Assembly (NCBI RefSeq): GCF_003334335.1
Contig: NZ_QOWQ01000230.1
Source: Escherichia coli
GTDB taxonomy: Bacteria; Pseudomonadota; Gammaproteobacteria; Enterobacterales; Enterobacteriaceae
Direction: 5' to 3' (one strand)
Length of the DNA stretch: 245 nt
The position numbers were made by a program, and so were the translations under genes. A model generated the notes under the pieces. That model had not been told where the DNA came from, did not search any database, and was given only the letters and a program-made list of their open reading frames with translations. Positions 123-245 of this stretch are shown piece by piece; within the stretch, counting starts at the first letter, position 1; every line of letters starts with the position of its first letter.

Positions 123-194
123 ATGCATAAAGTTTGTGCAGCCATTTTGTCCGCAGCCATCTGTCTGGCCGTATCCGGTGCGCCTGCATGGGCG
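123..194 (+). other. Sec-type signal peptide (24 aa) with predicted signal peptidase I cleavage after AWA (between codons 24 and 25)
   Basis: n-region MHK (basic Lys), hydrophobic h-region VCAAILSAAICLAVSG, c-region APAWA satisfying the Ala-X-Ala (-3,-1) rule. The mature protein would start SEQQATLSAGY. There is no lipobox, so SPase I rather than SPase II. Confidence 0.7.
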
Positions 195-245
195 TCTGAG
201 CAGCAGGCCACGCTGAGTGCGGGGTATCTTCATGCCCTGACGAAC
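123..245 (+). CDS. lom: Lom-like outer membrane protein (Ail/Lom/PagC/OmpX 8-stranded beta-barrel family), 5' end complete, 3' end beyond window; prophage-encoded moron
   Basis: ATG at 123 is preceded by a strong SD and the frame is open through 245 (41 codons, no in-frame stop). Translation is MHKVCAAILSAAICLAVSGAPAWASEQQATLSAGYLHALTN. From memory this closely matches the lambda Lom N-terminus (MRKLYAAILSAAICLAVSGAPAWASEHQSTLSAGYLH...), differing at a handful of positions. It has a Sec signal peptide and the family's TLSAGY first-strand motif. It sits directly downstream of a J-like gene end, as in lambda. Confidence 0.8.
   Translation, partial: MHKVCAAILSAAICLAVSGAPAWASEQQATLSAGYLHALTN

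What the first reader, a model, noticed from the sequence alone, without database searches (positions are those of the whole stretch)
123..245. Prophage lysogenic-conversion moron: lom-like outer membrane protein gene
The ORF start encodes a signal peptide and mature N-terminus that match the lambda Lom / Ail / PagC family. Members of this family are expressed from prophages or chromosomal islands and have been linked to adhesion to host cells and serum resistance. Its presence marks this window as the late-region right end (tail genes then accessory morons) of a lambdoid prophage, rather than core chromosome. This is a known gene class, not a novel one.
Basis: partly seen in the sequence, partly recalled or inferred. 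Interest (0 to 1): 0.4.

Follow-up and report, generated by a model that had tools for sequence, protein, structure and literature searches.

The report
Start of a phage lom gene
The window is the junction between the tail-tip gene J and the start of a lom-type outer-membrane protein gene of a lambda-like E. coli phage, a very common and already well-described arrangement.

Summary
Bases 123-245 are an open-ended ORF of 41 codons, preceded by a GAGGT ribosome-binding site. It encodes a Sec signal peptide (cut after AWA) and the first mature residues of an Ail/Lom protein. Pfam PF06316 matches the fragment alone at E=5.9e-16 and the PHROG Lom family at 9e-13.

Bases 2-55 are the last 17 codons and stop of tail-tip gene J. 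Bases 74-98 are a hairpin plus T-run whose pairing is kept by compensatory changes in related phages.

The window is 244/245 identical to prophages in at least eleven complete E. coli chromosomes. There the ORF runs 199 aa, ends GTGYRF, and sits in the order M-L-K-I-J-lom-stf-tfa. Matches occur in 4,393 of 5,426 complete E. coli genomes.

The "moron" label is only partly met. A relative without lom shows the gene is an insertable cassette, but no promoter is visible and base composition is unremarkable.

What the protein does is not settled. The main candidates are adhesion and blocking adsorption of kin phage. A deposited PDB entry holds lambda Lom together with maltoporin, the lambda receptor.

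The only unusual detail is a private G127A change (Arg2 to His). Known gene class; low interest.

The parts
2..55 (+). 3' end of tail-tip / host-specificity gene J: last 17 codons (DLLVVVMKKATAGITIS) and the TGA stop at 53-55
   Evidence: Translation. The peptide is identical to the C-terminus of the annotated J protein of the E. coli DETEC-S792 prophage. Records under the match are annotated as J.
74..98 (+). Intrinsic-terminator-like hairpin (stem 74-81 with 86-93, loop GAAA at 82-85) followed by a T-run at 93-98, directly after J
   Evidence: Found by the pattern scan and formed in the MFE fold. In 8 related J-downstream regions, 100% of cells are paired and 3 of 8 pairs show changes on both sides; slid controls pair 38-63%. 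Phage 434 depositors annotate a terminator at the same place. Lambda has a differently sequenced hairpin plus T-run at the same position (read by eye from the unpaired alignment).
102..122 (+). Left edge of the lom cassette and the lom leader, including the Shine-Dalgarno GAGGT at 114-118
   Evidence: Similarity to the lom-less phage Lambda_4C10 covers window 8-101 and stops there. Only 21 nt lie between the conserved TTTTTTATT and the ATG. An RBS is annotated at the equivalent place in phage 434.
123..194 (+). lom codons 1-24: Sec signal peptide MHKVCAAILSAAICLAVSGAPAWA, predicted to be cut after A24
   Evidence: Translation and hydropathy. The mature Ail chain 3qra begins aligning at homolog residue 27 with its own residue 3, which puts the mature start near residue 25.
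195..245 (+). lom codons 25-41: mature N-terminus SEQQATLSAGYLHALTN, aligned to the start of the barrel in Ail and OmpX; the gene runs off the window
   Evidence: Pfam Ail_Lom positions 1-40. Alignments of the homolog to lambda Lom 9wso and to Ail 3qra.
127..127 (+). Private single-base difference: A here, G in all relatives seen. Codon 2 is CAT (His) instead of CGT (Arg).
   Evidence: Alignment. No complete E. coli genome carries the exact window; the best is 99.6%. The 28-41-nt exact pattern is absent from IMG/VR, GTDB species representatives and JGI metagenomes. Every relative's N-terminus that includes residue 2 begins MRK or MRN.

Best explanation
The window spans the J-lom junction of the late (tail) operon of a lambda-like E. 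coli phage, most probably an integrated prophage.

Shown here:
- J ends at base 55.
- A hairpin with conserved pairing plus a T-run follows at 74-98.
- A GAGGT ribosome-binding site and an ATG at 123 open a gene of the Ail/Lom family (Pfam PF06316, Lom subgroup).
- In near-identical DNA the gene is 199 aa long.

Inferred from what is established for this family:
- The precursor is exported by Sec and cut after A-W-A.
- The mature protein of about 175 residues is inserted by the BAM machinery as a small eight-stranded outer-membrane beta-barrel. Its C-terminal ...GYRF acts as the beta-signal.
- Only 21 nt separate the terminator from the start codon, and no promoter consensus is present. The bulk of expression therefore most likely comes from late transcription that reads through the J terminator under Q antitermination, as reported for lambda lom late in infection. 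Expression in lysogens would be weak and come from an unmapped source.

Most likely function (inferred, about 0.4): the barrel alters the cell surface for the phage's benefit by associating with a receptor porin and lowering adsorption of kin phage to infected or lysogenic cells. This has been proposed for lambda Lom and LamB. Adhesion to animal cells is a non-exclusive second role.
For: Identity and anatomy:
- Sequence and translations.
- Pfam match on the 41 aa at 5.9e-16 and PHROG 108 at 9e-13.
- 99.6% DNA identity to annotated J and Ail/Lom genes in E. coli chromosomes and 96.7% to phage PhiR5_1.
- Full-length homolog: 199 aa ending GYRF, Pfam E=1.9e-126 over 1-199.
- PDB sequence matches: lambda Lom 9wso at 2e-45, Ail at 1e-18, OmpX at 5e-17.
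- Gene order M-L-K-I-J-lom-stf-tfa in three chromosomes and one phage.
- Hairpin covariation.
- Cassette nature, from the lom-less Lambda_4C10.

Function:
- Lambda Lom expression gives strong defence against lambda-vir but not T7, and rises late in infection (PMC12366544).
- PDB entry 9wso contains both lambda Lom and maltoporin chains.
- Adhesion to buccal cells is cited from Vica Pacheco 1997.
- lom is dispensable for lambda plaque formation (PMC10695390).
Against: - The window stops at codon 41, so an intact gene in the source DNA is inferred, not seen. Truncated lom copies do exist, for example 108 aa in Stx2_14744.
- All functional evidence concerns lambda Lom, which is only 41% identical to the homolog of this allele.
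- This phage's J C-terminus is 35% identical to lambda's, so the receptor may not be LamB.
- J-end type and Lom type are reshuffled among relatives. BP-4795 and Stx1_EH1992 have 100% identical J ends but Loms only 46% identical. Phage 434 and BP-4795 have Loms 96% identical but J ends only 40% identical. This speaks against a Lom tuned to its own phage's receptor-binding domain.
- No PADLOC defence model matches.
- No paper describing 9wso was found, so the meaning of that complex is inferred from its chain list only.
- The terminator function of the hairpin is inferred from structure and covariation, not measured.
Confidence: 0.93

Rival explanations
1. Classical lysogenic-conversion virulence factor. 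The barrel is made from the repressed prophage and its surface loops mediate adhesion to animal cells and/or serum resistance, benefiting the bacterial host.
For: Family relatives Ail and Rck, and lambda Lom, have such reports. Lambda Lom adhesion to buccal cells and its expression in lysogens are cited. The closest chromosomes include clinical and uropathogenic isolates. This is not exclusive of the best explanation.
Against: The protein scores far below the curated cut-offs for the Rck (104 vs 258 bits) and OmpX (96 vs 176 bits) equivalog models. No promoter consensus lies between J and lom or in the last 500 nt of J. Matches occur in 81% of complete E. coli genomes whatever their source. 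Lambda Lom levels in lysogens are reported to be low (PMC12366544).
Confidence: 0.3
2. The copy in the source DNA is a truncated or decaying remnant, a pseudogene in a defective prophage, so the 41 codons do not belong to a working gene.
For: Truncated copies exist: a 108-aa ORF in Stx2_14744 and short aberrant products such as P0006, P0016 and P0043. The private Arg2-to-His change removes a residue kept in every relative that includes it.
Against: Every one of the near-identical chromosomal copies inspected carries a full 199-aa gene. The window's start codon, RBS, signal peptide and reading frame are intact. Lys3 still supplies a positive charge in the n-region.
Confidence: 0.06
3. A chromosomal (non-phage) Ail/OmpX/PagC paralogue, or a chance ORF.
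For: None beyond the family being shared with chromosomal genes such as ompX.
Against: The J gene end lies 67 nt upstream in the same window. All matching records place the ORF between J and stf. The PHROG Lom match is 319 bits for the homolog. Pfam E=5.9e-16 on the fragment excludes chance.
Confidence: 0.01

Closest known systems
Ail/Lom family protein WP_032217644.1 of E. coli prophages (e.g. strains DETEC-S792, UPEC-245U/190328) and Lom of Escherichia phage PhiR5_1
   Same: DNA is 244/245 identical across the whole window for the chromosomal copies and 96.7% for PhiR5_1. The J end, hairpin, RBS and gene order J-lom-stf are the same.
   Different: One base differs: G127A, giving His instead of Arg at residue 2. 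Nothing beyond codon 41 can be compared.
Bacteriophage lambda Lom (NP_040601, 206 aa; PDB 9wso chain C)
   Same: Same position between J and stf. Same layout of J stop, hairpin plus T-run, GAGAGGT RBS, then ATG. Same family, same signal-peptide design, and the same C-terminal motif WRTDxFIVGxGY(K/R)F.
   Different: Only 41% protein identity for the full-length homolog, with a 7-residue length difference in the first surface loop. The hairpin sequence differs. The neighbouring J C-terminus is 35% identical, so the phage receptor may differ.
Yersinia Ail, Salmonella Rck/PagC and E. coli OmpX (eight-stranded barrels; PDB 3qra, 1qj8)
   Same: Same Pfam family and clan. The homolog aligns over the whole mature length at E of 1e-17 to 1e-19.
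   Different: These are chromosomal or plasmid genes, not phage late-operon cargo. The homolog is below the curated equivalog cut-offs for Rck and OmpX, so serum-resistance or invasion functions cannot be carried over.
Phage morons (Juhala/Hendrix definition; reviewed in PMC3594210)
   Same: An extra gene present or absent between conserved neighbours, with a terminator of its own after it.
   Different: No promoter of its own is detectable, and there is no room for one after the upstream terminator. GC content (0.55) is close to that of J (0.574) and stf (0.608).

Membership tests
Ail/Lom outer-membrane beta-barrel family (Pfam PF06316) | Significant match to the family profile starting at its position 1 | tested here: met
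   Window peptide 1-40 against model 1-40 of 199, E=5.9e-16, 59 bits. The homolog from 244/245-identical DNA matches 1-199 of 199 at E=1.9e-126.
Ail/Lom outer-membrane beta-barrel family (Pfam PF06316) | N-terminal Sec signal peptide with a small-x-small cleavage site | tested here: met
   Basic n-region HK, hydrophobic core at residues 4-17, AWA at 22-24. The alignment to mature Ail starts at residue 27. No dedicated signal-peptide predictor was available.
Ail/Lom outer-membrane beta-barrel family (Pfam PF06316) | Complete eight-stranded barrel of about 150-180 mature residues ending in an aromatic C-terminal beta-signal | not testable with these tools
   The window ends at codon 41 and its exact source was not found. 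By proxy only: the near-identical homolog is 199 aa, ends GTGYRF and aligns end to end with solved Lom, Ail and OmpX.
Phage Lom subgroup (PHROG 108) | Best match to the phage Lom profile and a position between J and stf | tested here: met
   PHROG 108 at E=9.3e-13 for the fragment and 2.5e-95 for the homolog. J lies upstream within the window. stf lies downstream in all relatives inspected.
Rck (complement resistance) equivalog NF011777 and OmpX equivalog NF006917 | Whole-protein score above NCBI's curated cut-off | tested here: not met
   Homolog scores 104.3 bits against a cut-off of 258 (Rck) and 96.3 against 176 (OmpX).
Moron (independently acquired phage accessory unit) | Present in some genomes and absent in others between the same conserved neighbours | tested here: met
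   Lambda_4C10 has J, the same hairpin, then stf directly. Similarity to the window covers 8-101 and ends there.
Moron (independently acquired phage accessory unit) | Own terminator after the gene | tested here: met
   This lies outside the window. A second hairpin plus T-run sits between lom and stf at L001 9826-9855, and one is annotated in phage 434.
Moron (independently acquired phage accessory unit) | Own promoter allowing expression from the repressed prophage | tested here: inconclusive
   No sigma-70 consensus site in the window or in L001 8500-10000. Only 21 nt lie between the T-run and the ATG. A consensus scan cannot exclude a weak or non-canonical promoter inside J.
Moron (independently acquired phage accessory unit) | Base composition different from the neighbouring genes | tested here: not met
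   In L001, lom GC is 0.550, J is 0.574 and stf is 0.608.
Known anti-phage defence or superinfection-exclusion systems (PADLOC-DB) | Match to a catalogued defence protein model | tested here: not met
   No family at E<=0.01 for this Lom type or for lambda Lom. The library dates from 2023, before the 2025 report on Lom.

The most novel reading that the evidence does not exclude
This Lom type is not primarily a virulence factor. It would be a phage-serving receptor-masking protein that binds the outer-membrane receptor used by phages of its own kind and stops progeny being wasted on infected or lysogenic cells. The deposited lambda Lom-maltoporin entry and the lambda-vir defence phenotype suggest this for lambda Lom. 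The J-lom junction, with its conserved hairpin, would be the recombination joint at which receptor-binding domains and masking proteins are re-paired. The private Arg2-to-His change could lower export of the protein.
Probability: 0.3. Interest if true: 0.35.

Novelty: already known. Interest (0 to 1): 0.1.

Why it matters
In practice the window identifies the DNA as the right end of the tail-gene block of a lambda-like E. coli phage, an element present in most E. coli genomes, often in several copies. That helps with annotation and with understanding assembly breaks, but it is not a discovery.

The open question it touches is what Lom proteins are for. [quoted passage not shown] It has been linked to adhesion and, more recently, to blocking lambda itself. 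This window adds no functional data on that question.

Tried and rejected
- Source of the window: I looked for the exact DNA, and so for the rest of the ORF, with exact patterns across the G127A site. IMG/VR, GTDB species representatives and JGI metagenomes each gave 0 matches. No complete E. coli genome holds the exact window either.
- Protein search with the 41-aa peptide: it returned only short partial Lom fragments, none with His2. It did not retrieve full-length proteins.
- lom promoter: none found by consensus scan in the window or in 1.5 kb around the homologous locus. Hand inspection of 56-122 gave nothing better than 3/6 hexamer matches.
- Known RNA family in the intergenic region: no Rfam match at E<=1.
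- Known defence family: no PADLOC match.
- Coupling of Lom type to J C-terminal type, expected for a receptor-matched exclusion factor: not supported in 7 loci, r=0.25, with clear reshuffling. The sample is small and only the last 100 residues of J were used.
- Literature: no paper describing PDB 9wso was found, and the Liu et al. 2013 ribosome-profiling paper is not held.
- Minus-strand ORFs (48-233, 59-211 and others): rejected as mechanical. They lie antisense to lom, and no record annotates a gene there.

Full report
**What is in the window.** The 245 bases hold four features, all on the + strand.

1. Bases 2-55 translate to DLLVVVMKKATAGITIS followed by TGA. This is identical to the C-terminus of the annotated 1,157-aa host-specificity protein J of a prophage in E. 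coli DETEC-S792.
2. Bases 74-93 form an 8-pair hairpin with a GAAA loop, followed by a run of T at 93-98. The pattern scan and the minimum-energy fold (z=-1.87 for the whole 70-nt spacer) both find it.
3. GAGGT at 114-118 sits 5 nt before an ATG at 123.
4. From 123 the frame stays open to the end of the window. It gives MHKVCAAILSAAICLAVSGAPAWASEQQATLSAGYLHALTN.

- The peptide has the shape of a Sec signal peptide. It has a basic start, a hydrophobic core at residues 4-17 and A-W-A at 22-24.
- On its own it matches Pfam Ail_Lom (PF06316) model positions 1-40 at E=5.9e-16.
- It also matches PHROG 108 'Lom outer membrane protein' at E=9.3e-13.
- NCBIfam has no significant match for so short a piece.
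- No Rfam family matches the window.
- The minus-strand ORFs listed mechanically have no support in any annotated relative.

**Related sequences.**

- Megablast finds the window in 179 phage records, almost all from E. coli lambdoid and Stx-converting phages. The best is PhiR5_1 at 96.7%.
- It also finds matches in 4,393 of 5,426 complete E. coli genomes, with a median of 2 and up to 12 places per genome. Of 13,279 places, 13,231 are on chromosomes.
- At least eleven chromosomes are 244/245 identical. None is identical.
- In three of them, and in PhiR5_1, the gene order is tail genes M, L, K, I, J, then the Ail/Lom gene, then a tail-fibre gene (stf) and a tfa-like gene.
- In one of them the prophage ends next to the core gene prfC.

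**The full-length gene in near-identical DNA.** It is 199 aa and ends GTGYRF.

- It matches Pfam Ail_Lom over 1-199 of 199 at E=1.9e-126.
- It matches PHROG 108 at 2.5e-95.
- By sequence it matches solved lambda Lom (9wso, 2.3e-45), Yersinia Ail (3qra, 1e-18) and OmpX (5e-17) over the whole mature length.
- It is 41% identical to lambda Lom.
- It is below the curated cut-offs of the Rck and OmpX equivalog models.

The result is by proxy, because the window itself stops at codon 41.

**The hairpin after J.**

- In an alignment of eight J-downstream regions, all 64 cells of the eight proposed pairs are standard pairs. Three pairs show changes on both sides: G-C/G-U/A-U at 78:89, C-G/U-A at 79:88 and A-U/U-A at 81:86.
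- Sliding the 3' arm by 1-3 columns drops pairing to 38-63%.
- By eye, lambda has a hairpin of different sequence (CGTCCG-GGAA-CGGGCG) followed by TTTT at the same place.
- The depositors of phage 434 annotate a terminator there.

I read this as a conserved intrinsic terminator after J. Its activity is inferred, not measured.

**Is lom a moron?**

- Lambda_4C10 has no lom. Its J is followed by the same hairpin and then directly by stf. Its similarity to the window stops at base 101.
- Relatives with lom carry a second hairpin plus T-run between lom and stf.
- The insertable unit is therefore RBS + lom + terminator, bounded by the T-runs of two terminators.
- Only 21 nt lie between the first T-run and the ATG. 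No sigma-70 consensus was found in the window or in 1.5 kb around the homologous locus.
- GC content of lom (0.55) is close to that of J (0.574) and stf (0.608).

The presence/absence and own-terminator criteria are met. The own-promoter criterion is unresolved and the composition criterion is not met.

The simplest expression model is read-through of the J terminator by Q-modified polymerase during late transcription. This fits the reported sharp rise of lambda lom expression late in infection (PMC12366544). The source of the expression reported in lysogens remains unmapped here.

**What the protein does.** Established family knowledge gives the cell-biological path. Sec exports the precursor, signal peptidase cuts it, and BAM inserts an eight-stranded barrel. 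The biological role is less certain.

- The older literature reports that lambda lom promotes adhesion to human buccal cells (Vica Pacheco 1997, cited).
- lom is dispensable for lambda plaque formation (PMC10695390).
- A 2025 study found that expressing lambda Lom gives strong defence against lambda-vir but not T7. The authors proposed that it limits non-productive adsorption of kin phage (PMC12366544).
- PDB entry 9wso contains lambda Lom (2 chains). It also contains maltoporin, with the sequence used in the lambda tail-receptor structure 8xcj. A Lom-LamB complex has therefore been deposited. I found no paper describing it.

This makes receptor association the most concrete mechanism available for lambda Lom.

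Three results argue for caution in carrying this over to the present allele.

- It is only 41% identical to lambda Lom.
- The J C-terminus next to it is 35% identical to lambda's.
- Among seven loci, J-end type and Lom type are freely re-paired. BP-4795 and Stx1_EH1992 have identical J ends but Loms 46% identical. Phage 434 and BP-4795 have Loms 96% identical but J ends 40% identical (r=0.25).

No PADLOC model matches.

I rate the identity of the feature at about 0.93. I rate the receptor-masking function for this allele at about 0.4 and an adhesion role at about 0.3. The two roles are not exclusive.

**The one unusual detail.**

- Base 127 is A where all relatives have G, changing residue 2 from Arg to His.
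- The exact 28-41-nt pattern is absent from IMG/VR, GTDB representatives and JGI metagenomes.
- It is also absent from the 5,426 complete E. coli genomes at full-window identity.
- All relatives' N-termini that include residue 2 read MRK or MRN.
- Lys3 remains, so export is probably retained.

It may be a rare variant or a sequencing error. I could not distinguish the two.

**Verdict.** This is a well-known gene class in a very common genomic setting. Novelty: already known. Interest is low.

Noticed in passing
window 127: Private G-to-A difference that turns the conserved Arg2 of the Lom signal peptide into His. It was not found in any relative or in three public collections by exact pattern. 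It could be a rare allele, a sequencing error or a mildly export-impairing mutation.
   Followed up: yes
window 74-98: Terminator-like hairpin directly after J. Its pairing is kept by compensatory changes in related phages, and lambda has a differently sequenced hairpin at the same spot.
   Followed up: yes
window 8-101 versus L009 1201-1294 (Lambda_4C10): A lambda-like phage without lom carries the same J end and hairpin, followed directly by stf. This places the left edge of the lom cassette at about window 101/102 and leaves no room for a promoter before lom.
   Followed up: yes
PDB entry 9wso: One deposited entry holds both lambda Lom and maltoporin (LamB) chains, which implies a solved Lom-receptor complex. 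No paper describing it is in the held library.
   Followed up: partly
L006 (BP-4795), L008 (Stx1_EH1992), L004 (434): J C-terminal type and Lom type are recombined independently: identical J ends go with 46%-identical Loms, and 96%-identical Loms go with 40%-identical J ends. The conserved intergenic hairpin region may be the crossover point.
   Followed up: partly
L001 9754-9762: A perfect extended -10 motif (TGTTATAAT) lies between the lom stop and the second terminator (9826-9855). It could drive a short transcript or contribute to stf expression. The consensus scan did not report it because it has no -35 element.
   Followed up: no
L007 923-1249 (Stx2_14744): The lom copy here is annotated as a 108-aa hypothetical protein. 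It is a truncated copy, in a record where a second phage (PPompW) is nested.
   Followed up: no
L001 12587-18245; L011 9440-12245; L010 9727-10830: Beyond stf and tfa these prophages carry further surface or virulence-type cargo: a YadA-like adhesin gene and, in two of the strains, an S6 family (autotransporter) peptidase gene.
   Followed up: no
protein database hits P0001-P0108: Nearly all close hits are 'partial' Lom fragments of 23-72 aa. They probably come from contig ends, because lom occurs in up to 12 near-identical copies per genome and breaks short-read assemblies.
   Followed up: no
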